Below, piece by piece: positions 25,076 to 62,455 of a stretch of DNA of 64,000 nt (its first letter is position 1; every line of letters begins with the position of its first letter). The stretch comes from an uncultured virus (IMG/VR IMGVR_UViG_3300011768_000001) (lineage: Duplodnaviria; Heunggongvirae; Uroviricota; Caudoviricetes), in IMG/VR virus record IMGVR_UViG_3300011768_000001, positions 1 through 64,000 of that record; one strand, given 5' to 3'. Both the position numbers and the translations under genes were made by a program. The notes beneath the pieces are model-generated. The model was not told where the DNA came from. It searched no databases and was given only the letters and a program-made list of their open reading frames with translations.

Positions 25076-26068
25076 TTGAAGTGGGAAGATTATGATAATT
25101 GCGGAAATGAGGGAATCTTGCAAGATAAGAGGACCGGTCTAAAATTTGGACCTCTGGCACAATTAACTGTAATGGGATATTACTCATCGATCAATACTAA
25201 AAAGATTAGATATATCCTTCAATGCTCAATTTGTAAGGAAGATCCTGAACTATTTGGTGATGGTCTGTTTGATATGCAATGGGGAAATATAAAGATGGGT
25301 AATATGCCGTGTGGCTGCTCTATATCCCCCAAATGGAGTGAAGATCAAATGAAGACACGTGCTATTCGTTTATGTAGGGAGAAAGGATATACCTTCATTG
25401 ACTGGAAAGGGGAGTACACAGCCAATACCACCAAAATATTACTCCTTGACGAGTACGGACAAAGTGATTCCATAGGGCTTGCGAACCTCCTGTCTGGACA
25501 AAATAGCTCAAACAATAGAAAAAGAATGACATCAATTTCCAAATCTAAGACGGATGGAGATATTATTCAAAGCTTCTTTAATACTGGGGTCTTTCACGAA
25601 GATACTAAGTTTTGGAAAGGTAATGAAATAGACTATAAAGGTCAAAGAACTATTTGGTATATGACCTGCCCTCTTTGTGGTGTCACGGCAGGATCTTACA
25701 GAAGTAATTTACAAAAAGGTAAACGTCCTTGTGGTTGTACCAAATTCAACGGTCAGAAGTTTATGTATATAAACGGTATACTGGATGGCGAACTATATTG
25801 TGCAATTAAATTTGGTAAGACTCACTACCCAACTAGGCGGCTAAAGGAGCAAAACAATAAGTGTGCTTTAGATATTGTCGGGATAGGTGTGTGGGAATTT
25901 AAAGATCCGTATAGCTCTACTCAGGCGGAATATTACTGTAAAACAACATTTGAATGTGGGATTATTTCATATGACATTATGCGAGATGGTTGGTCAGAGA
26001 CTACCTATGCCTATAACTACGATAAAATAGTTAAAATTTACGAAGACTGTGGAGGTATTAAACTGTAG
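25076..26068 (+). CDS. Putative free-standing homing endonuclease, Zn-ribbon plus GIY-YIG-like; paralog 2 of 3
   Basis: CSICKEDPELFGDGLF, PCGCS, CPLC, PCGC, IKFG..R..N, DGWSET. Confidence 0.6.
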   Translation: MKWEDYDNCGNEGILQDKRTGLKFGPLAQLTVMGYYSSINTKKIRYILQCSICKEDPELFGDGLFDMQWGNIKMGNMPCGCSISPKWSEDQMKTRAIRLCREKGYTFIDWKGEYTANTTKILLLDEYGQSDSIGLANLLSGQNSSNNRKRMTSISKSKTDGDIIQSFFNTGVFHEDTKFWKGNEIDYKGQRTIWYMTCPLCGVTAGSYRSNLQKGKRPCGCTKFNGQKFMYINGILDGELYCAIKFGKTHYPTRRLKEQNNKCALDIVGIGVWEFKDPYSSTQAEYYCKTTFECGIISYDIMRDGWSETTYAYNYDKIVKIYEDCGGIKL

Positions 26069-39956: not shown

Positions 39957-40215
39957 CCTAATCTTCAGAAGGTTTCGTTAAGTCCTTCCCGCATAAAACG
40001 ATGCTGCTGCATATTGCTATGCAGATGAGACTATCTCTTATACTTCACCTTTACGTGGTCAGTACCCCACCACTTCCACTCACTTGAGTGTACGCCTCTC
40101 GGCTAGTCGTTACACGTTCCCTTCCGGGCTTCGCTCGGTATTGTCCACTTGGGAGTTTCACCGACTTCGATGGGTTTATTCTTCAACGTATTTCTACGAA
40201 GCGAGCCTACATTCA
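39957..40215 (-). ncRNA. Group I intron TMP-I1 (259 nt, no ORF)
   Basis: P1 GAGCU/GGCUC with U-G; P10 UGUA/UACA; P AAGUCGGUGAA, Q AAUACCGAGC, R GUGUAACGACUA, S AAGAGAUAGUC; terminal G 39957. Confidence 0.9.
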
Positions 40216-41123
40216 AGCTCTTCTGACATCAGTTTGTCCTTTCCCGCCACTTGACTAAGTGCACGAAAGATACGATTTTGAGAAGCTTTGTCTACATGGT
40301 TAACACGAGCAAGTTCAGAGAATCCTTTAAAAATCCCCTTACCCTGATCTACAGACATACCCGCACCAGTTACGCCGGAAAGCAGCTTGTTGAAGTCTGG
40401 TGCTGCATCAAGGTATGAAAAACCCACCCTGTTTGCCTGTGCTCTTAACCAATCATAAGACTGAACACCTTGCTGCCTTGACCCACCCGCTTGTTCTACA
40501 ACTGCTTGTGTAGTAAGCTGTGAGGCCACAATTTGCTGATTACGCTCATTAAGCTGTGATAGTCCATACCCACCTAACCCTAATGCTAACGCAGGAGCAT
40601 ACAGCCTTGCAGCACTCCCTGCGACGCCCCCACCAGCCATTGCATCGCGTCTTGATAGCCGACTTGAAGTAGACCTTACGTTAGCAGATTCTCGCCTCAT
40701 ACGGGCTTCCTCCTGCATTACAATACGGCGTCTATTCCACTCGTTTGTAGTTTCTCTTTGTCTTCGGTCCCACTCTTTAGAGCTGAGTTGACCGCCAACA
40801 AGACTTGTACCAAGGCTACCTTTACGACCTACCGATCTACTTGCCCTAAGCAGTGCAGCTTGCAGGGAGCGTTCATTTACAGCGAATCTTGATACATCAA
40901 ACACAAGTGTTTTGGATGCACTATCTAAAGCATTACCAAGCACCTGTTTAAGTTTTGTTTCGTTAACGGAGAACTTAGTGATCCCAACATTCAGGTTATC
41001 AAATTTCTTACGGTACTTCGTAAACTTTGTTTCTAATGCTTGTAGGTATAAGTCAACTTTCCTCAATTGGGAATTATTGACCGATACGCCGACTTCCGCG
41101 AAGTATCTTGCAATGCCTGTCAT
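40216..41123 (-). CDS. Tape measure protein, exon 1 (spliced product about 744 aa)
   Basis: Tape-measure N-domain motif RALSQV.GK.KLMSEEL; follows the tail chaperones. Confidence 0.85.
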
Positions 41124-51311: not shown

Positions 51312-51549
51312 CATAATCTTAAATAAGATTCGTTATATCTTACCCAGCCGGGAAAGGCTGCTATATATCACTATATAGAGGAGACTATATCTTCAAACAA
51401 TTTTGTTTGCCCACCGCTTCGGGTCACTTGACCCTACTCCATTTCTGGATAGTCGTTACACGTTCTAGATTTCTCTAGCTTCGCTCGGTATTGTCTCTTA
51501 AGAGAGGTCCACCGAATTCAATGGGTTTATAGACGACCAAGGTTAGTAA
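51312..51549 (-). ncRNA. Group I intron TerL-I2 (238 nt, no ORF)
   Basis: P1 GACGAU/GUCGUC with U-G; P10 AACCU/AGGUU; P AAUUCGGUGGA, Q AAUACCGAGC, R GUGUAACGACUA, S AAGAUAUAGUC; terminal G 51312. Confidence 0.92.
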
Positions 51550-52767
51550 ATCGTCTTTATTTTTTCGACTTCCGTCAAACTGCTCTAATTCGTCGAAATA
51601 AATATCATTCCAAGCATCTTCTACGTAGTCAATAAGACCTGCCTCAGCTGCTGCTGCAAAAGGTTGGAATCGAACTACTTTAGACTTGTTAGTTGGACGC
51701 ATACGGGCATAAAATCCTTCTTCAAGGAGCTCTTTGATCATCATCTGACCCGCTGCTTTTCCGGCTTGGCCTGGCTCCTGCGGCAGTAGAATCTGAGTAC
51801 CTTCAGGATCTGACTTGGCGGTTTCAATGATACGTTGCATGACCTCACCAAACCTAGCTTTAAACCTAACCACATCTACAACAATATATCTTCCAGATTT
51901 TGTCTTCGCTATCAAAACACCAGCTGTTGCATCAGGATTTGGCATTGCCTCTGATGGTAAACTACCAGCGATATCCCACGCACGACAGTAAGAAATAATA
52001 TTCTGTTCGTGTAGTTTTACAGGAGTACAGAATTCTTTCTTAAAGAAGCCGCTTGTAGATTCTTTAGCATACCATGAACCGAGGTAAAGACGCTCCATCT
52101 CCACGCGCGGCATGTTCATAAGTTTGTGGGCGTAGGATGGGTCACGGCGAAGTAAAACTGGATTATCATGACAGTTTGCAGGTAGGAAAACGAATGACAT
52201 AGGACCACAGTTTTCACCATAGGTCGCAAGCAACTCTTCTTTTGATTCATTCCAAACCATCTGGTTGTCTATACGGATGAACCACATACGTTTACCGTCA
52301 CGGTCTTTACGAGGAAGGCCACGCTCATCCAAGTACCCTGCATCTTCTAGCCACTTACGAAGGTAGCTGTTGTAATCAGGGTTGGCTGTCATCATCATCA
52401 CAGGCTTCATTGGTGCTGCTGTACGCATCCTTGAGATGAAGTAAAGCACTTGACTTTCTTCAAATTGCTGAGCTTCGTCCACCAGAAATGCACTTACTTG
52501 CCAGCCTTGGAAGTTATGTTTATCTTTCTCTTGCTCACACCCCTTACAAACAATAGTGGCTTTATTAGGAAAAATAAATTTACTATCCTTGACTTTAAAT
52601 TGAGCGCCGAACTTTTGATAAATTTCTTGTCCAGTTTCTGCTGGACCGCCTGGGCCAGTCACCTGAACCATTGTTCTTCGTAGGATAACCCCGCGAAACT
52701 TTTCCATGACAGGATCTTGCGCCCATTGCAGAAAAGCCATGACACCTAAATAACTTTTACCACTACC
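51550..52767 (-). CDS. terL: Terminase large subunit, exon 2
   Basis: GSGKS, Walker B FLVDEA, TANP, RAWDIA; spliced product 476 aa. Confidence 0.95.
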
Positions 52768-53001
52768 CAAATACTTATGAAGTTCGTTAGACTTCCTTTC
52801 ATTACTGAAAGAATCGGACTATATCTTCAACCTTTCGGTTGCCCCCCGTTTCGATTGCACTTGCAACCTACTCTACTAAGTTCCGTATAAATACGTCTTT
52901 TCGATAGTCTCTGAACGTTACTTATTTCTAAGTCTTCGCTGCTGATTGTCTCTTTTGAGAGTTCCAGCAATTAGAGGGGTTTAACGCGACCCATAGTGTT
53001 A
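52768..53001 (-). ncRNA. Group I intron TerL-I1 (234 nt, no ORF)
   Basis: P1 GCGGCU/GGUCGC with U-G; P10 CACUAU/GUAGUG; P AAUUGCUGGAA, Q AAUCAGCAGC, R GUUCAGAGACUA, S AAGAUAUAGUCC; terminal G 52768. Confidence 0.92.
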
Positions 53002-53100
53002 AGCCGCGCCTCCGAAGAGGACTATATCATTTTCTGAAACCGCCTTAAGGAAGGCGGCTTGCTTGGGCGAGGCTGGAGCAATAATATTATCTTCAGACAT
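53002..53100 (-). CDS. terL: Terminase large subunit, exon 1
   Basis: MSEDNIIAPASPKQAAFLKAVSENDIVLFGGAA (Q-motif plus first half of Walker A). Confidence 0.9.
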
Positions 53101-53848
53101 ATCTGCCGTTTACCTTATCTAATGCACGAGCATTAACTGCACCTGCTGACTTATTTTCATACTCAGTCACAAACATGCAAAGCTCTCGTGAGTACACTTT
53201 GTTATCTGAAACTTTTAAATCTTTATCAAGATTGTATTTAAGTCCTGTCTCACTGGCATTAAGCCACATTTCAAAGTTTTCAAGTTTTGAAATATCTGTG
53301 AGAAAGTTTGCAAAACAGTGCCAACGGGCATCAACAAAGCAACGACCAAAATATCCCATATAATCTTTCGGGTTGTAGCAACGCTTCATCATATTAGACC
53401 AGAGCTGTTTAGCTTGTTTCCAATAAGGAAGGTGTTCATACTCACCTATATACCCAATATCTAGGAATGTTTTACTATAAGGATCTGAAATCTTACCTTT
53501 ACGTACATTATGAATTTCAACAGTAGTTGTATATCCAGTTTCGTTAAACTGAACAATACATTTGTTGGCTTTCTTGCTGATGATTTTACCGCTGAACCCA
53601 GCATTATTGGTAAAGTCTTCATCCCAGGGTTGCCAATCATGTGTGTTTACTCGGGGTAAACTAAAATCCCTTACCTTTCCAGCAAGCACATTACCCGCTT
53701 CGGCAATTGTTTCGTACCCGGTGTTAACAAACCTAACACGCAGCTTCTTACTTTCCTCAGCCCGTCCCAGCACCTCAAGTGTACCATAGCCATTTGACTC
53801 ATAGAACTGATCATAAGTTTTTCGATAACTTCCAACTTTGTTAGCCAT
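53093..53848 (-). CDS. Free-standing HNH-like homing endonuclease overlapping the terL start
   Basis: Two N-terminal repeats (V.F..TGY......NV..GK..D), WSNMMKRCY, W..F.NF, LDKD, NKVYS...C.FV...N. Confidence 0.8.
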   Translation of the reverse strand: MANKVGSYRKTYDQFYESNGYGTLEVLGRAEESKKLRVRFVNTGYETIAEAGNVLAGKVRDFSLPRVNTHDWQPWDEDFTNNAGFSGKIISKKANKCIVQFNETGYTTTVEIHNVRKGKISDPYSKTFLDIGYIGEYEHLPYWKQAKQLWSNMMKRCYNPKDYMGYFGRCFVDARWHCFANFLTDISKLENFEMWLNASETGLKYNLDKDLKVSDNKVYSRELCMFVTEYENKSAGAVNARALDKVNGRYV

Positions 53849-53887: not shown

Positions 53888-54259
53888 TTACTTCACATCA
53901 TCTTTAACTTGAGGATCATCGCCACCAAAGGCAGCTTTCAGATACTGACTTGTCATAACACTGCGGTCACGTCCACCAATCCCGTGCTTCTTCTTTACTA
54001 CGGCTTTGAACTCGGACCACTCCATAGCATCAAGCTGTTCTTTAGTAAAGTTTTCTTGCATGATCTGAAACTGAAATCCAGGTTTATTTTCCATCAAGTC
54101 TTTTGTCTTGAGATACATCCAAGCTGAGTGAGGAAACCTCAGACCTGGAACTTTATCTTCTTCAAGAACAGCGCCTTTATTAGCTAGCTCTACGACGTTC
54201 TTGATGAAGCTATATCCGATGGAGTCATTACCTGTAACTAGAACTTTATATTCATTCAT
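53888..54259 (-). CDS. Hypothetical protein
   Basis: GGAGAG SD; own promoter upstream. Confidence 0.75.
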   Translation of the reverse strand: MNEYKVLVTGNDSIGYSFIKNVVELANKGAVLEEDKVPGLRFPHSAWMYLKTKDLMENKPGFQFQIMQENFTKEQLDAMEWSEFKAVVKKKHGIGGRDRSVMTSQYLKAAFGGDDPQVKDDVK

Positions 54260-57240: not shown

Positions 57241-58989
57241 TCAGAGCACTTCTTTTACAGTCCAGTTATCAATTGTACCAGAGAATGTAGCATTACGTGC
57301 TTCCAAACCTAGCCACGTACCTGTAGCAACAAATGTGCCTGTCAAGTGACCGTTCACAACAGCCCAACGGATACGACCTGTCTCATCAGAGCCTGGACTT
57401 GTTGTAATAAGTCTGACCTCAGCCCCAGAAGTAAATGTCATATCAAGTTCAACCTTGTAGGTTTTGCCTGCTGTCAACACACCCTCTCGGAAGATCATAT
57501 TACCGCCATTTATAGCTGTAATTTTAGTTCCGCTAACAGTTACGCCAGAAGTCTTAGTCCAAGCTGCTGTATCAAGTCCCATCACCCTTTCAGGGCCGTA
57601 GGCTACAGACACCATAGGTGCTCCGTAAACTTTACGAACCATAATTGTAGCAGCACCAATTGCCACAGAAACTGTGCCTGTAGCTCCAATACCACTAAGC
57701 TGTGGAACCAATGTTAGTGTGTTTGCGCCTACAGTGATCCTACCAGTCAAATGTCCTAGCAAGGGTGTGCTGACAATAGAAGCTGTGCCGGCAGCATTCA
57801 TTGAAGTGTTAGCCGACAAAGAGCCAATTCTAAAAGCTGCTGTACCTGGGGCTGCTTGTTGAACTTTGTAGTCAAGCTGAACATTACTCAAGCCTGTATT
57901 GTTTGGAAAGCTAAACTTTACAGAAGCTGCTGTGTTATCAGTTTGAAAAATCACTCTGTAATCAATTTCATACACACCACCAGCTTCTAATACCAATGCC
58001 GGGAATGTAGTTGCCCAAGATGCTGCTGTTGAGCTTGTATAGGACAATGCTGTACTATTACTTTGGTATTGTGTAGTAAGGGGTGTTGCAAACTCTGTGG
58101 CGACAACTGAGGAGCTTGTAACTGTAACGTTAACTGTATCTCCAGCATAAGCTGTAGCAATTCGTGATGCATTACTTCGTACAACACGACCAGCAATTTC
58201 AAATACTATTTGACCAACGCCAATTTGCCAAGCAGTGATGCTAAAACCATCTGTTAGTGTCTGAGGGAATGTAAGGGTTGTGGTATTAGCCGAATCTACT
58301 AGGACAAGCTTCTTGTGGTCAGCATCTGTGAAGGTGTAAGGGCCTGTGAGGACCAATGCACCATTGGGTGCTGAACTACCCGCTGGTCCAGTAGGACCCT
58401 GTGGACCTGTAGCGCCCGTATCACCTTTAACTCCCTGTGGTCCCTGAACACCTTGCAACCCTTGAATACCCTGATTACCGGTATCTCCTTTAGGCCCTGT
58501 AAGTCCGATTGGGCCTTGGGCACCTGTGTCACCTTTTGGTCCTACAGCGCCGTCAGATCCTGCTGGCCCAGTTAGTCCTTGAATACCTTGAGGACCAGCA
58601 ACACCCTGTGCTCCACTATCGCCCTTAGCCCCAGTTAGACCAGTATCTCCTTTAGGACCTTGGACTCCTTGTGGTCCAGTCAAACCAATTGGACCTTGTA
58701 ATCCATCGTCACCTTTGGGTCCAACTTCACCAGCAATCCCTTGAGGACCCTGCTCACCACGAGGACCTGTTGCCCCGTTTGTACCAGGAACTCCGTCCTC
58801 ACCCTGAATGCCTTGGGGGCCTTGTAGTCCATTTTGACCGGCAGGACCTTGGGGACCAACTAGCCCTTGAATACCCTGTGGGCCAATAGGGCCTGTATCA
58901 CCCTTCTCGCCTTTAATGGAATTTGTGATAGTTGGGGCGGGAAATGGAGTATTAGTATTTTTAAAACTGATTGGTATTGTCTCACTCAT
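57241..58989 (-). CDS. Collagen-like fibre protein
   Basis: About 60 uninterrupted Gly-X-Y triplets (58372-58911) followed by beta-rich domains. Confidence 0.85.
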   Translation of the reverse strand: MSETIPISFKNTNTPFPAPTITNSIKGEKGDTGPIGPQGIQGLVGPQGPAGQNGLQGPQGIQGEDGVPGTNGATGPRGEQGPQGIAGEVGPKGDDGLQGPIGLTGPQGVQGPKGDTGLTGAKGDSGAQGVAGPQGIQGLTGPAGSDGAVGPKGDTGAQGPIGLTGPKGDTGNQGIQGLQGVQGPQGVKGDTGATGPQGPTGPAGSSAPNGALVLTGPYTFTDADHKKLVLVDSANTTTLTFPQTLTDGFSITAWQIGVGQIVFEIAGRVVRSNASRIATAYAGDTVNVTVTSSSVVATEFATPLTTQYQSNSTALSYTSSTAASWATTFPALVLEAGGVYEIDYRVIFQTDNTAASVKFSFPNNTGLSNVQLDYKVQQAAPGTAAFRIGSLSANTSMNAAGTASIVSTPLLGHLTGRITVGANTLTLVPQLSGIGATGTVSVAIGAATIMVRKVYGAPMVSVAYGPERVMGLDTAAWTKTSGVTVSGTKITAINGGNMIFREGVLTAGKTYKVELDMTFTSGAEVRLITTSPGSDETGRIRWAVVNGHLTGTFVATGTWLGLEARNATFSGTIDNWTVKEVL

Positions 58990-59369: not shown

Positions 59370-60398
59370 TCAATTAAATTGATCTAACAAAACTTCTTCG
59401 CCGCCAAAGTTTCGATATATTTGTTCCACAGTTTCAATATTTGATAATTTGGTTGTTTCGGTATAACCACAGCCAATATCATTTTTCGATACTACATGGC
59501 AGAGCAAATTTTCTTTACAATACCTTTCCGCATCAAGGCAAGACTTCCTATCTTTAAATACAAAAAGTTTATATAATTTCAGTTTTAAAGGTGTCTTTTT
59601 ATAATTAATATTTGCAATCCTGTTTTTATAATTTTTACTTATACCAAACTTTATTGCCACAGGAAAGTCGCCGTCCATCACAATATTTATATAAGCCTGT
59701 ACTTGCCCGGATAAATAAGAACAACTACAGGAGCATCTGCCGTTCTTAAGTGAATCTGATTGTGCTACTGCTAAAGTCTCACATACTGGACAGTCCACCT
59801 GCCAATATACTGTTCTACTCTTACGCCCTTTTTCATACTTTATAGGACCAAGTCTTGTGAACTGTGTATCGGGATGATATTTACCGGTAGCAAAGAAATC
59901 TTCCTCTGTTACAGGGTTTGAATAATGCCTTTTGATGCCTGTAGATTCTTCTTGACATTTAGGGCAATAAATTCTATTTTTGTGTATTACAGAAAGTCGA
60001 GGGGATTCCCAATTTCCATGTTCTTTACAGCAAAAAATTGATCTCGTATCACTCCCCCGAAAATCCCCGAACCAACCACTGAAAGAAAATCCATTTTCAG
60101 CCGCTTTTCTAGCTGAAATTATCTCCCATTGGTTCTCGTTGTAAGTAGCTTTTTTAGAGCAACCACAGCACATTCTGGCTGATACATGACCAGCCCTGGC
60201 TATAAAAAGACCTTCGCCATAAAGTTCTGGATCGCGAGCACAAACGGAGCAGTAAAATACTATCGATAAATTATGTCCCTTTCTTTGCCCTTCTTTTTCT
60301 GGGACATGCCCGCGGTATTCAACATCTTCTCTGCAAAACTTACTGATATCATAATTTTGTTTAAAAATTAAGTCTTCTACTAAACCTTCATAGACCAT
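59370..60398 (-). CDS. Putative free-standing homing endonuclease, Zn-ribbon plus GIY-YIG-like; paralog 3 of 3
   Basis: CSVCARDPELYGEGLF, CCGCS, CPVC, CSC, IKFGI...R, GYTET. Confidence 0.6.
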   Translation of the reverse strand: MVYEGLVEDLIFKQNYDISKFCREDVEYRGHVPEKEGQRKGHNLSIVFYCSVCARDPELYGEGLFIARAGHVSARMCCGCSKKATYNENQWEIISARKAAENGFSFSGWFGDFRGSDTRSIFCCKEHGNWESPRLSVIHKNRIYCPKCQEESTGIKRHYSNPVTEEDFFATGKYHPDTQFTRLGPIKYEKGRKSRTVYWQVDCPVCETLAVAQSDSLKNGRCSCSCSYLSGQVQAYINIVMDGDFPVAIKFGISKNYKNRIANINYKKTPLKLKLYKLFVFKDRKSCLDAERYCKENLLCHVVSKNDIGCGYTETTKLSNIETVEQIYRNFGGEEVLLDQFN

Positions 60399-60401
60399 CT
60401 A

Positions 60402-60520
60402 AAACCTCTATAGTCAAGCTTCTCAATGTCTGCAACAGGGACATTGTAACAAACCCTTCATCAAGGAGCTTGCTATAAAGGTCTTGCTGTTACAATGTTT
60501 TAATCCGTTGCAGCGGATTA
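60402..60520 (-). promoter_or_regulatory. Bistable RNA leader controlling the SD of 59370..60398
   Basis: Mutually exclusive stems: AGACCUUUAUAG/CUAUAGAGGUUU (covers GAGG) versus ACAUUGUAACA/UGUUACAAUGU; loop CUGCAA complementary to UUGCAG. Confidence 0.55.
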
Positions 60521-60535
60521 GTTCTTAAAAGACTA

Positions 60536-60925
60536 TTAATCGTCTTCTGGATCTTCTTTAAAAACTAAGCTAAGGCGCGGGCGTGCCTCTTTAGCAAGAT
60601 CTGCCGGAGTTTGATCACCTTCAAGTGAATCTTTCACTTCAAACTTAAGTTTGTTGTAAGAAATCTCTTCAGCGTTGCTTGCTTTGGACACAGTTACAAT
60701 GCTATTAACGAGCCATTTACTCGAATTTAACTGATCTGGGTCAGTAGCTTCACCATTGATACTTTTCTTGATGTTCTCAAGGGCTTTATCTTTCATCTCA
60801 AGAAGCTGCTCTTCAAGAATTCGAAGTTTGCTTTTAGTGATACGCTTTGAGTTACCGCCCGTGTTTTTACGGTTAGACTTGCTGCCGTTAAATCTTGTAT
60901 CTGGATTTGGTGACTTATTTGACAT
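60536..60925 (-). CDS. Putative terminase small subunit
   Basis: 129 aa; basic N-terminus (TRF.G..SN...GG), helical core, acidic tail; upstream of terL on the same strand. Confidence 0.45.
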   Translation of the reverse strand: MSNKSPNPDTRFNGSKSNRKNTGGNSKRITKSKLRILEEQLLEMKDKALENIKKSINGEATDPDQLNSSKWLVNSIVTVSKASNAEEISYNKLKFEVKDSLEGDQTPADLAKEARPRLSLVFKEDPEDD

Positions 60926-60949
60926 TATTAGTTCCTATATTTTCAAGAG

Positions 60950-61945
60950 CGCACTTTAGGTAGCGTATCACCTGAATATTTTCTTAAAGCCTATCAGCAA
61001 TAATTGCAGTTCGTTAATAAACGGTAATAGGACTTAAGAAAATGACTTCAATGCTAGTAGGAGAGATATAGCGCCAAAGTCAATAAACCAGTTCGCAGGA
61101 GAGAGGGACGAACAGCTTTAATTGCCGAGAGGAGAATGTACATCGTGTACTGATCGGCGGGAGACACCACAATTTCTGAGGAGAGGTTTTACTTAGTTTG
61201 TGGCGGTGAAACTTTACATTAGCTATAATCAGTAAATTAGCTGTTCAGCTAATCAAAGTATAGTAGCTAAGAAACCTCTTGGTGCGCTTCAGTGATAGGC
61301 GTAGAGGTTATGGTTATTCGTTGCACCTCAGAAAAGTCATATCAAAGGGTTTGTAAAGAGAGAAAACTTTGACTGTTTCTTTCTGAGACGACTTTATCAG
61401 AACTCACCAGCTCTAATCACTAACCGAGGGCCAAAATTAGCTTTCAAGCCGAACATCCTCACGGGTAGTTCGCATTCTGACTTTTTAAACTAAAGATAAT
61501 TAAAACCCTTTACCCGCACACCGGCTGGACCATCTTACTGGTAGGGAAGACAACCTAATAAATTAGGGATCAGAAGTCTTTTTAAAAATGCCCCGCGATT
61601 GCCTCTATGACAATTCTCCCGAGGACTTTACCGTCACAGTTCACGGCAATGAGACAAGAATCTTCACTCTTGAATGTTGGAACACCAACCTTTACAACAG
61701 GGGCTCAAAGGCCAATACACTTGCACAGGAAACGGGCAGCTAATAAATTAACATCCCATGTCGCCGAGGTAGAGTCCTGCTCTCTTTGCTCGACCATTTT
61801 TAACACGAAAACAGGCTTCTAGTTATGAAGCAACGTCTCGGAAGTGACGCTGTAAAGTCGCTGTCATACTATTTCCGTCGTTCTCACCCTACCAACAAGC
61901 ATATGGAAATTGATAGGGTTGCTCCATACAGCCAACGGGAATTCT
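60950..61945 (-). ncRNA. Putative large structured non-coding RNA(s), about 1 kb
   Basis: No credible ORF; nested long-range helices (61860-61853/61396-61389; 61803-61795/61590-61582) and many hairpins with minus-strand G-U pairs; 3' array of CU-rich-loop hairpins. Confidence 0.6.
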
Positions 61946-62218
61946 TTAACAAGTGATTGTGTAAGGTGGTCCGAAGTCTGTTGGCTCGTAATGCTTGCCA
62001 ATGAAATCTGAAGCCTTCTTAAAATCGAACGGAGCTTGTACATCAGAAACTTTGAATGTAAAAGGTTGGGAGCTTACGTTATTATGATCAGGGGTCTCTT
62101 TATCAAAGACAAGCTTCAAATGATCCTTGATCACCAACCACTGCTTTTCTGAAATTACATCAGAATCTTGCAGTTCAACAAAACCTTGCAGCCAATAACA
62201 GAAATCTTTCTCATTCAT
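61946..62218 (-). CDS. Conserved phage hypothetical protein
   Basis: FCYWLQGF.E...QW..IKDHL.LVF.K.TP motif. Confidence 0.8.
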   Translation of the reverse strand: MNEKDFCYWLQGFVELQDSDVISEKQWLVIKDHLKLVFDKETPDHNNVSSQPFTFKVSDVQAPFDFKKASDFIGKHYEPTDFGPPYTITC

Positions 62219-62242
62219 AATACTTTCCCTTATTCATATAAT

Positions 62243-62271
62243 AGTTTATAGATTAATATTCATATTGTCAA
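62243..62271 (-). promoter_or_regulatory. Sigma70-like promoter
   Basis: TTGACA-N17-TAAACT. Confidence 0.6.
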
Positions 62272-62275
62272 GCAT

Positions 62276-62455
62276 TTATTCATACTCAGGCCAAATATCT
62301 TTATATTGTGTAGGATGAAGGCTAATCTTTTCCATCGCATATTCAAAGCGAAAGCTTTTACCACCCTCTTCAAGAATAACAACGTCTGGAAATTCTTGAT
62401 CTTCTATGATTTCTTGCAACTGGCTCCCAAACAGAGAGCTTTGATTCTCTTCCAT
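62276..62455 (-). CDS. Small acidic hypothetical protein (59 aa; not in ORF track)
   Basis: MEENQSSLFGSQLQEIIEDQEFPDVVILEEGGKSFRFEYAM...; GAGG SD. Confidence 0.6.
   Translation of the reverse strand: MEENQSSLFGSQLQEIIEDQEFPDVVILEEGGKSFRFEYAMEKISLHPTQYKDIWPEYE

What the first reader, a model, noticed from the sequence alone, without database searches (positions are those of the whole stretch)
61040..61390. Tandem hairpin array with anti-Shine-Dalgarno (CUCUCCU) loops: candidate phage translation-control RNA system
Seen: on the + strand, AGGAGA recurs four times within about 130 nt (near 61058, 61098, 61130 and 61179), each copy inside a different stem-loop (GCTA..TAGC, GTTCG..CGAAC, GCCGA..TCGGC, CCACAA..TTGTGG). 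A fifth loop has AAGAGAGA (61357). The stems differ in sequence while the loop motif is kept, and none of the copies precedes a credible ORF. AGGAGA(G) is the SD this phage uses (e.g. before 10752, 17775, 21405). Inference A, favoured because the flanking genes and the upstream RNA domain are minus-strand: the RNA displays single-stranded CUCUCCU loops that could pair with ribosome-binding sites of host or early phage mRNAs, like C-rich-loop sRNAs, perhaps after processing into separate hairpin sRNAs. Inference B: a plus-strand transcript with GGA loops would be an RsmA/CsrA sponge like RsmY/RsmZ; a few G-U pairs fit the plus strand. I do not recognise this array as a described family.
Basis: partly seen in the sequence, partly recalled or inferred. 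Interest (0 to 1): 0.8.

Follow-up and report, generated by a model that had tools for sequence, protein, structure and literature searches.

The report
Phage RNA with anti-ribosome-site hairpin loops
An uncultured Felix-O1-like phage and at least 16 relatives keep, just ahead of their structural genes, a folded RNA whose hairpin loops show the mirror image of the phage's commonest ribosome-binding site, so it probably damps translation, though nothing has been tested at the bench.

Summary
AGGAGA occurs four times on the + strand in 126 nt (61059-61184), each inside a hairpin, against a chance expectation of 0.03.

It is one copy of a conserved module of about 175 nt, best read on the minus (gene) strand:
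- leader AAGUUUCACC;
- hairpin H0;
- three hairpins (H1-H3) with pyrimidine loops, core CUCUCCU;
- a long forked hairpin, H4;
- a conserved 129-aa basic protein gene.

A covariance model built from two relatives finds the module full-length in 17 distinct phage contigs. Of 43 modelled pairs, 37 show compensatory changes, and 97.8% of cells pair against 63% in shuffles. In relatives, tRNA genes abut the leader on the same strand.

No Rfam family matches. The closest known kind is the cuckoo/CcsR (ar14) small RNAs of Alphaproteobacteria, but the membership tests fail.

The most likely function, untested, is that the loops occlude GGAG(A)-type Shine-Dalgarno sites. These are commoner in non-structural genes (36/110) than in structural genes (7/48). 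A role as a Rho- or protein-binding leader is not excluded. The CsrA-sponge reading is not supported.

Earlier reports of this scan described the same family in related phages.

The parts
61041..61214 (-). Whole conserved RNA module (leader, H0, H1, H2, H3)
   Evidence: Full-length match (model positions 1-162 of 162), 44.3 bits, E 4.7e-8, to covariance model R1 built only from L003 and L007. It is the only match in the window.
61205..61214 (-). Conserved single-stranded leader AAGUUUCACC. In relatives it starts a few bases after a tRNA 3' end.
   Evidence: near-invariant columns. The tRNAs abut it in L003, L007 and L138. A role as an RNase E site is inference only.
61167..61203 (-). Hairpin H0 (stem CCACAA/UUGUGG). 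In this phage its loop also carries CCUCUCCUC.
   Evidence: In helix 1 of the model, 8 of 8 pairs show changes on both sides.
61124..61158 (-). Hairpin H1 (stem GCCGA/UCGGC), with UUCUCCUCUC in an internal loop beside a small inner hairpin
   Evidence: On a plain MAFFT alignment H1 is 92.9% paired against 77.4% in shuffles (0/500), and 4 of 6 pairs show changes on both sides.
61084..61120 (-). Hairpin H2 (core GUUCG(U)/(G)CGAAC), loop CCCUCUCUCCU
   Evidence: In model helix 4, 12 of 12 pairs show changes on both sides. Non-cognate arms pair as well as cognate arms in 0 of 208 comparisons.
61044..61081 (-). Hairpin H3 (outer GACUUUGG/UUGAAGUC, inner GCUA/UAGC), loop UAUCUCUCCUAC
   Evidence: In model helices 5 and 6, 13 of 14 pairs show changes on both sides. 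The cross-pairing control gives 9 of 208.
60978..61043 (-). Long forked hairpin H4 (outer stem UUUCUUAAG/CUUAAGAAA), just before the ribosome site of the first gene. Candidate processing site.
   Evidence: Present with covarying outer stems in 13 of 13 genomes examined and in L064 and L160. It appears in Rfam only as a spurious palindromic miRNA hit on both strands. The function is inferred.
60536..60925 (-). Conserved 129-aa protein gene that follows the module
   Evidence: It directly follows the module in 14 of 17 contigs, down to 48-50% identity. There is no Pfam, PHROG or PDB match. The AF2 model has a disordered basic N-terminus plus a helical hairpin, mean pLDDT 70.5.
61325..61390 (-).
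   Evidence: It folds. It lies outside the model match and has no BLAST counterpart in relatives.

Best explanation
The array is a conserved structured RNA module of about 175 nt, read on the minus strand, the strand of all neighbouring genes.

Its parts, in order:
- a single-stranded leader, AAGUUUCACC;
- hairpin H0;
- three hairpins, H1-H3, whose stems differ freely between phages but whose loops are pyrimidine-only with the core CUCUCCU;
- a long forked hairpin, H4;
- the first gene of the structural (late) gene block, which encodes a 129-aa basic protein.

Shown here: the structure, its conservation, its position, and its lack of any Rfam match.

Inferred:
1. The module is transcribed with the upstream tRNA/leader region and the late block.
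2. It may be released by cuts at the A/U-rich leader and at H4.
3. Its exposed loops pair with GGAG(A)(G) Shine-Dalgarno sites, which this phage uses mainly in replication and small-gene blocks. Pairing occludes these sites and shifts translation toward the weaker-SD structural genes, or away from host messages. This is how the cuckoo/CcsR, sX13 and RNAIII C-rich loops are thought to work.
4. The linked 129-aa protein may be its RNA-binding partner.

My odds: conserved minus-strand structured RNA about 0.85; anti-SD pairing as its mechanism about 0.45.
For: Clustering:
- Four motif copies lie in 126 nt, against 0.027 expected.

Conservation:
- BLAST does not align the array to the ten loci, yet 3-4 TCTCCT copies sit 100-250 nt before the 129-aa gene in 7 of those 10 loci (L003-L009). 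L001 carries the cluster about 2 kb upstream. L002's array was found by eye, and L010 is cut off.
- Model R1, built from 2 sequences, finds full-length matches in 15 of 15 arrays already recognised, plus L064 and L160.
- R1 finds no match in L025, none in the first 50 kb of Pseudomonas phage vB_PsaM_M1, and none elsewhere in the window.
- Among the 239 loci from the pattern scans, 11 match. All are family members or duplicates.

Covariation:
- 97.8% of 591 cells pair, against 63.4% in shuffles (0/500) and 34.5-45.7% when partners are slid.
- 37 of 43 pairs change on both sides.
- On an alignment not fitted to the model, H1 is 92.9% paired against 77.4%.
- Non-cognate arms pair as well as cognate arms in 6/178, 0/208 and 9/208 comparisons.

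Strand:
- tRNA genes end 0-8 nt before the leader in L003, L007 and L138.
- Single mismatches in Watson-Crick helices are G-U 12 times and A-C twice.
- Motif positions are unpaired with probability 0.93 on this strand against 0.67 on the other.
- A weak full-length ar14 (RF02344) match falls on the gene strand in L023: 17.4 bits, E 3.6.

Target logic:
- 13 of 22 strong SDs are AGGAGA.
- GGAGA-type SDs occur in 7/48 structural-block genes against 36/110 in other blocks (Fisher p 0.02). Any GGAG occurs in 12/48 against 60/110 (p 0.0009).

Precedent (passages read):
- Cuckoo RNAs have 2-4 adjacent hairpins, each loop carrying an anti-SD-like motif, with highly variable stems (PMC4615179).
- CcsR RNAs lie in the 3' or 5' UTR of a small RNA-binding protein gene and are cut out by RNase E next to U residues (PMC8034643).
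Against: - No transcript has been seen.
- The energy comparison between strands is a tie: the gene strand is more stable in 8 of 15, and H1 alone is slightly better on the other strand in 11 of 15.
- The alignment behind one search was fitted to the model, and the structure was derived from two of its own rows.
- The 17 sequences are related, so the counts are not independent events.
- No promoter or terminator bounds the module. The scan finds no more sites than shuffles do, so release as a separate sRNA is conjecture.
- A 5-7 nt complement to GGAG is generic. It predicts no specific target and would also hit the phage's own late genes that carry GGAGA (7 of 48).
- The SD-class contrast rests on heuristic gene calls and start choices.
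- The host, and hence its 16S tail, Hfq and RNase E, are unknown.
- A C/G ratio of 1.6-2.4 fits a Rho-binding reading equally well.
Confidence: 0.45

Rival explanations
1. The same minus-strand RNA acts as a cis-acting leader that controls transcription into the structural gene block. Either its C-rich, G-poor loops load Rho and stop read-through from the tRNA/early region until a phage factor overrides it, or the loops are nut/put-like sites bound by a protein (possibly the 129-aa basic protein) that modifies RNA polymerase.
For: - The position is fixed at the boundary between the tRNA region and a structural block of about 35 kb.
- The module stays at the head of the operon even where other ORFs are inserted before the 129-aa gene, as in L001 and L002.
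- C/G is 1.6-2.4 on the gene strand in 15 of 15.
- The module is tightly linked to a small protein with a conserved basic, disordered N-terminus.
- No promoter is detectable between the module and the gene.
Against: - Rho sites are degenerate and largely unstructured. Here an exact 7-mer is kept and most of the RNA is helical.
- No boxA/boxB-like words were seen.
- The protein has no detectable relation to any antiterminator or RNA-binding family.
Confidence: 0.2
2. The hairpins are processing and stability elements of a tRNA/late-operon precursor. They would serve as trailer structures that block exonucleases and guide RNase E/III cuts, with the pyrimidine loops carrying no regulatory function of their own.
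For: - The module directly follows tRNA 3' ends in relatives.
- The A/U-rich leader and the long H4 hairpin look like RNase E and RNase III substrates (inference).
- RNase E cuts next to U residues release CcsR RNAs (PMC8034643, passages read).
Against: - This phage has no tRNA gene at all yet keeps the module.
- Simple protective hairpins do not need an invariant loop word kept across stems that have turned over completely.
Confidence: 0.1
3. A plus-strand transcript displays AGGAGAG/GGA loops and titrates CsrA/RsmA, or 30S subunits.
For: - The hairpins form on either strand.
- Whole-region folding energies do not separate the strands: 8 of 15 favour the gene strand.
- H1 is slightly more stable on the plus strand in 11 of 15.
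- GGA-containing loops would be exposed with mean unpaired probability 0.67.
Against: - All flanking genes and the abutting tRNAs are on the other strand.
- No plus-strand promoter or terminator brackets the array.
- The G-U versus A-C asymmetry is 12:2 in favour of the gene strand.
- There is no CsrB/RsmY/RsmZ match, even at E<=10.
- An antisense RNA would run into antisense tRNA sequence in relatives.
Confidence: 0.06
4. The element works as DNA. Hairpins extruded from single-stranded or supercoiled DNA would serve as an origin, a priming signal, a packaging site or an unusual promoter cluster.
For: - Compensatory stem changes would also preserve DNA hairpins.
- G-T pairs are tolerated in DNA.
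- There is one copy per genome, at a fixed map position.
Against: - The module is continuous with tRNA genes and an operon leader on one strand.
- It is 7 kb from the large terminase gene, and a different small ORF (53888-54259) sits next to that gene.
- No replication or packaging protein is linked to it.
Confidence: 0.05

Closest known systems
Cuckoo / CcsR (RSs0680, ar14; Rfam RF02344) small RNAs of Alphaproteobacteria
   Same: - 2-4 adjacent hairpins of 24-50 nt.
- Each loop carries the same C/U-rich anti-SD-like word.
- Stems are highly variable through compensatory change.
- The RNAs lie in the 5' or 3' UTR of a small RNA-binding protein gene and are released by RNase E next to U residues (PMC4615179 and PMC8034643, passages read).
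- In the present family there are three (here four) such hairpins, loops are 8-19 nt, and a small basic protein gene is linked.
   Different: - The loop word is CUCUCCU, not CCUCCUCCC.
- There is no RF02344 match in the window at E<=10. The best relative scores 17.4 bits against a gathering score of 58.8.
- The element is encoded by a phage, after tRNA genes and before structural genes.
- The linked protein has no DUF1127 or other Pfam domain.
- It has extra conserved parts: the leader, H0 and H4.
- No expression or target data exist.
Other C-rich-loop regulators: sX13 (Xanthomonas), 6C (Actinobacteria), RNAIII hairpins 7/13/14 (Staphylococcus)
   Same: Several stem-loops expose C-rich loops that pair with G-rich or SD regions of many mRNAs. 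For sX13 and 6C I saw only search listings and abstracts; they are also mentioned in PMC4615179. RNAIII is from my own knowledge.
   Different: There is no sequence or model similarity. Those are cellular, promoter- and terminator-bounded sRNAs, with loop words CCCC/UCCC rather than CUCUCCU.
CsrB / RsmY / RsmZ protein sponges
   Same: A tandem hairpin array with one short motif repeated in the loops and variable stems.
   Different: Their motif is GGA on the transcribed strand. Here GGA would appear only on the unsupported plus strand. No Rfam match and no own promoter or terminator.
Phage leader RNA sites (lambda nut boxB, HK022 put) and T4 tRNA-cluster stable RNAs (species 1 and 2)
   Same: These are hairpins with conserved loops in the leader of a phage operon next to a small basic protein gene, and non-tRNA stable RNAs co-transcribed with phage tRNAs. 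Both resemblances come from my own knowledge and were not tested here.
   Different: - Loop words and hairpin number differ.
- No antiterminator homology is detected in the 129-aa protein.
- No similarity search against those RNAs was possible beyond Rfam.

Membership tests
Cuckoo / ar14 (RF02344) | 2-4 adjacent hairpins (24-50 nt) with variable, covarying stems | tested here: met
   H1-H3 are 23-57 nt in 15 genomes. 37 of 43 pairs show changes on both sides.
Cuckoo / ar14 (RF02344) | Loop motif CCUCCUCCC | tested here: not met
   The loops carry (C)CUCUCCU. Only some contain CCUCC.
Cuckoo / ar14 (RF02344) | Match to the Rfam covariance model at its gathering score | tested here: not met
   No match at E<=10 over 60300-62400. 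None at gathering score in 9 relatives. The best is 17.4 bits against 58.8 in L023.
Cuckoo / ar14 (RF02344) | Alphaproteobacterial locus linked to a DUF1127 protein gene | tested here: not met
   The genome is a phage. The neighbouring 129-aa protein has no Pfam domain.
Cuckoo / ar14 (RF02344) | Expressed and processed sRNA that represses targets through its loops | not testable with these tools
   No RNA run holds the stretch. No host is known.
CsrB/RsmY/RsmZ-type sponge | GGA motifs in loops of the transcribed strand, with own promoter and terminator | tested here: not met
   GGA appears only on the + strand. No + strand promoter or terminator flanks the array. No Rfam match. The strand evidence favours the minus strand.
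Rho utilisation (rut) site | C-rich, G-poor RNA | tested here: met
   C 0.27 and G 0.15 on average; C/G is 1.6-2.4 in 15 of 15.
Rho utilisation (rut) site | About 80 nt of largely unstructured RNA with no fixed sequence | tested here: not met
   Most of the module is helical and one 7-mer is conserved. Non-motif positions are unpaired with probability 0.40.
tRNA / tmRNA | Cloverleaf recognised by ARAGORN or Rfam RF00005 | tested here: not met
   No tRNA is found in the window or in the whole 88-kb genome.
lambda nut / HK022 put leader sites | boxA/boxB or put stem-loop consensus, and a cognate antiterminator | not tested
   The resemblance is only in position. No model of these sites was run. 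The 129-aa protein has no detectable family.

The most novel reading that the evidence does not exclude
The phage makes a trans-acting anti-Shine-Dalgarno RNA, co-expressed with its structural genes. The RNA masks GGAG(A)G-type ribosome-binding sites of host and early/middle phage messages and so acts as an RNA-based early-to-late (or host shut-off) translation switch. The adjacent 129-aa basic protein would serve as its dedicated chaperone or maturation factor.
Probability: 0.3. Interest if true: 0.8.

Novelty: new variant of a known kind. Interest (0 to 1): 0.6.

Why it matters
Few phage-encoded regulatory RNAs are known, and none that I could find in print has this architecture. Searches returned no phage report.

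If the loops do occlude ribosome-binding sites, this would be an RNA means for a virulent phage to re-allocate ribosomes between gene classes or away from the host. It would also show that the cuckoo-type design (many hairpins, one anti-SD loop word, free stems) arose independently in a virus.

The module is small (about 175 nt), well defined and rich in natural covariation. It is therefore directly testable in vitro even without a cultured host.

Tried and rejected
**Similarity searches**
- BLAST of 60300-62400 against 50,697 phage records found only a 50-nt hit inside the 90-aa gene.
- tblastn of the 129-aa protein against the same records found no match.
- The 90-aa neighbour gave no related viral loci.

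**Alignment and pattern scans**
- A MAFFT alignment with RNAalifold recovered only H1, because the other stems were out of register. I therefore used a covariance model.
Only 11 of 239 loci match the model. The family size is therefore a lower bound.

**Expression and transcription signals**
- Sequencing runs: no RNA holder is listed. The DNA contigs laid cover only parts of the stretch.
- The promoter/terminator scan found no more sites than shuffles do, and none bracketing the array.

**Strand**
- Whole-region folding energy does not tell the strands apart (8 of 15).

**Function of the 129-aa protein**
- Pfam, PHROGs, the word-index homologue search, the Atlas and a PDB profile search named no family.
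- The AF2 model is a simple helical hairpin, so I ran no fold search.

**Other checks**
- Only the first 50 kb of the cultured relative vB_PsaM_M1 was scanned. It has the tRNA-then-structural-genes layout but no array.
- Rejected: the AGGAGA copies as real ribosome sites of small ORFs. No start codon lies at a workable distance.
- Rejected: the module as degenerate tRNAs.
- A look-up of earlier findings by place returned nothing.

Full report
**The observation**

The plus strand carries AGGAGA at 61059, 61097, 61130 and 61179. The hexamer is not enriched in the window overall: 31 matches against 29.8 in shuffles. Four copies on one strand within 126 nt, however, are far from chance. A span of that size expects 0.027 copies, giving P 2.3e-8, or about 2e-5 after correcting for the number of spans.

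Folding is more distinctive on the minus strand (z -2.69, 1 of 100 shuffles as good) than on the plus strand (z -1.35).

No credible plus-strand ORF follows any copy. AGGAGA is the commonest strong ribosome-site form of this phage, at 13 of 22.

**Setting**

The window belongs to an 88,237-bp virus record. Its portal protein is 54% identical to that of Pseudomonas phage vB_PsaM_M1, an Ounavirinae member.

The array lies in a 1-kb ORF-free gap (60926-61945) between two minus-strand genes. Downstream on that strand lie:
- a 129-aa protein gene;
- a homing-endonuclease-like ORF;
- tail-fibre-like genes;
- the large terminase, portal, protease, major capsid, sheath-like and baseplate genes.

The plus-strand block at 3-26 kb encodes primase-helicase and ribonucleotide reductase. 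The array therefore sits at the head of the structural block.

**Relatives**

The 129-aa protein retrieved ten viral loci and two further metagenome loci. BLAST aligns the protein gene but not the array.

Even so, 3-4 copies of TCTCCT sit 100-250 nt upstream of the gene, in hairpin loops with unrelated stems, in L003-L009 and L023. In L001 and L002 the array lies about 2-3 kb upstream, before inserted ORFs. Pattern scans added L072, L121, L138 and L220.

All share one architecture on the gene strand:
- leader AAGUUUCACC;
- H0, with a small inner hairpin;
- H1;
- a linker, CUUAAAGA, that runs into H2;
- H3;
- a forked long hairpin, H4;
- the ribosome site of the first gene.

A covariance model built from only L003 and L007 with my structure matched all 15 arrays then known over its full length. 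E-values ranged from 3e-45 to 5e-4; the window match is 61041-61214 on the minus strand, at 44.3 bits. It matched nothing in L025, in the first 50 kb of vB_PsaM_M1, or elsewhere in the window.

Among the 239 pattern-scan loci it matched 11, all of them family members or duplicates. Two were new: L064 and L160. There the module is again followed by H4 and a homologue of the protein, now only 48-50% identical. That makes 17 distinct contigs, which is a lower bound.

**Structure is under selection**

| Test | Result |
|---|---|
| Model-fitted alignment: cells paired | 97.8% of 591 |
| Same, shuffled | 63.4% (0/500 as high) |
| Same, partners slid | 34.5-45.7% |
| Pairs changed on both sides | 37 of 43 |
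| H1 on a plain MAFFT alignment | 92.9% paired vs 77.4% shuffled (0/500); 4 of 6 pairs compensatory |
| Non-cognate arms pairing as well as cognate | 6/178 (H1), 0/208 (H2), 9/208 (H3) |

Three caveats apply to the model-fitted figures. The alignment leans toward the model. The structure came from two of its own rows. The sequences are related to one another.

The loops remain pyrimidine-only with the core CUCUCCU.

**Strand**

For the minus strand:
- tRNA genes on that strand end 0-8 nt before the leader in L003, L007 and L138, and lie close by in L006 and L072.
- All neighbouring genes share that strand.
- In helices defined by Watson-Crick pairs only, single mismatches are G-U 12 times, A-C twice and other 10 times.
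- Motif positions are unpaired with probability 0.93, against 0.67 on the other strand.

Against, or neutral:
- Whole-region energy favours the gene strand in only 8 of 15.
- H1 alone is slightly more stable on the other strand in 11 of 15.
- No transcript data exist.

This phage has no tRNA gene at all yet keeps the module. Its role therefore does not depend on tRNA maturation.

**What it resembles**

Rfam has no family for it. The nearest is a sub-threshold, full-length ar14/cuckoo match in L023, at 17.4 bits against a gathering score of 58.8.

Cuckoo (CcsR) RNAs are defined by 2-4 adjacent hairpins, each loop carrying CCUCCUCCC, with stems dominated by compensatory change (PMC4615179, passages read). 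They lie in the 3' or 5' UTR of a small RNA-binding DUF1127 protein gene and are released by RNase E next to U residues (PMC8034643, passages read).

The phage module has the same design and is likewise tied to a small basic protein gene. It fails the motif, model and context tests, so it is an analogue and not a member.

**Mechanism**

I favour occlusion of GGAG(A)-type ribosome sites by the loops. By a heuristic gene call, GGAGA-type sites precede 7 of 48 structural-block genes against 36 of 110 genes in the other blocks (p 0.02). Any GGAG precedes 12/48 against 60/110 (p 0.0009). An RNA made with the structural genes would therefore mainly hit non-structural messages.

This is inference. 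The complement is short and generic, and no promoter, terminator or processing site has been shown.

A cis role in transcription control cannot be excluded. The module is C-rich and G-poor (C/G 1.6-2.4), stays at the operon head when genes are inserted behind it, and travels with a protein whose model shows a disordered basic N-terminus and a helical hairpin.

The CsrA-sponge reading on the plus strand, and DNA-level readings, have little support.

**Prior notes of this scan**

After I had reached the cuckoo comparison, a look-up showed that earlier agents described the same family in three related genomes with the same reading. One of those notes prompted my test of ribosome-site classes. These are not independent evidence.

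I found no paper describing it. The phiPMW genome paper was read in passages and does not mention such an element.

Noticed in passing
window 40007-40225, 51361-51610, 52795-53063 (minus strand): There are three group I introns above the Rfam gathering score. Two flank or interrupt the large-terminase region (ORF 51475-52770), and an HNH-endonuclease-like ORF lies at 53093-53848. A related locus, L007, also has one.
   Followed up: no
window 61215-61945; whole genome G000: This phage has no tRNA gene, whereas relatives carry 1-7 in the syntenic gap. The 730-nt ORF-free stretch upstream of the module is only patchily similar to relatives: 61870-61935 matches L001/L006/L008, and 61486-61630 matches L007:1207-1407. 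It folds unremarkably (z -1.4). It may be the remains of a lost tRNA region, or it may hold other small RNAs.
   Followed up: partly
window 59370-60398 (minus) and 60399-60535: A CapR-domain/endonuclease ORF (PF21817, phrog_681) sits where relatives have a tRNA-Met gene after the 129-aa gene. A second CapR-domain ORF lies at 25076-26068.
   Followed up: no
window 61111-61164 versus a contig of run X2: A DNA contig from another sample is identical over hairpin H1 but runs into unlike sequence on both sides, and those flanks again contain the purine motif (tables 7 and 8). This suggests the hairpins are exchanged as modules between strains.
   Followed up: no
L007:1824-3320 and L007:1207-1407: One relative encodes a 498-aa DUF2828/DUF7788 protein upstream of its tRNA cluster. 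A non-coding block about 400 nt before it is 87% identical to window 61486-61584, although the window lacks that gene nearby.
   Followed up: no
whole genome G000, by gene block: Structural-block genes use markedly weaker ribosome sites (GGAG in 12 of 48) than the replication and small-gene blocks (60 of 110). The gene calls are heuristic.
   Followed up: partly
window 61273-61308 (minus): A weak abiF-RNA-like hairpin match (21.6 bits against a gathering score of 37, E 0.96). Probably chance.
   Followed up: no
window 57241-58989 (minus): A 582-aa tail-fibre-like protein with collagen triple-helix repeats (PF01391, E 8e-29).
   Followed up: no
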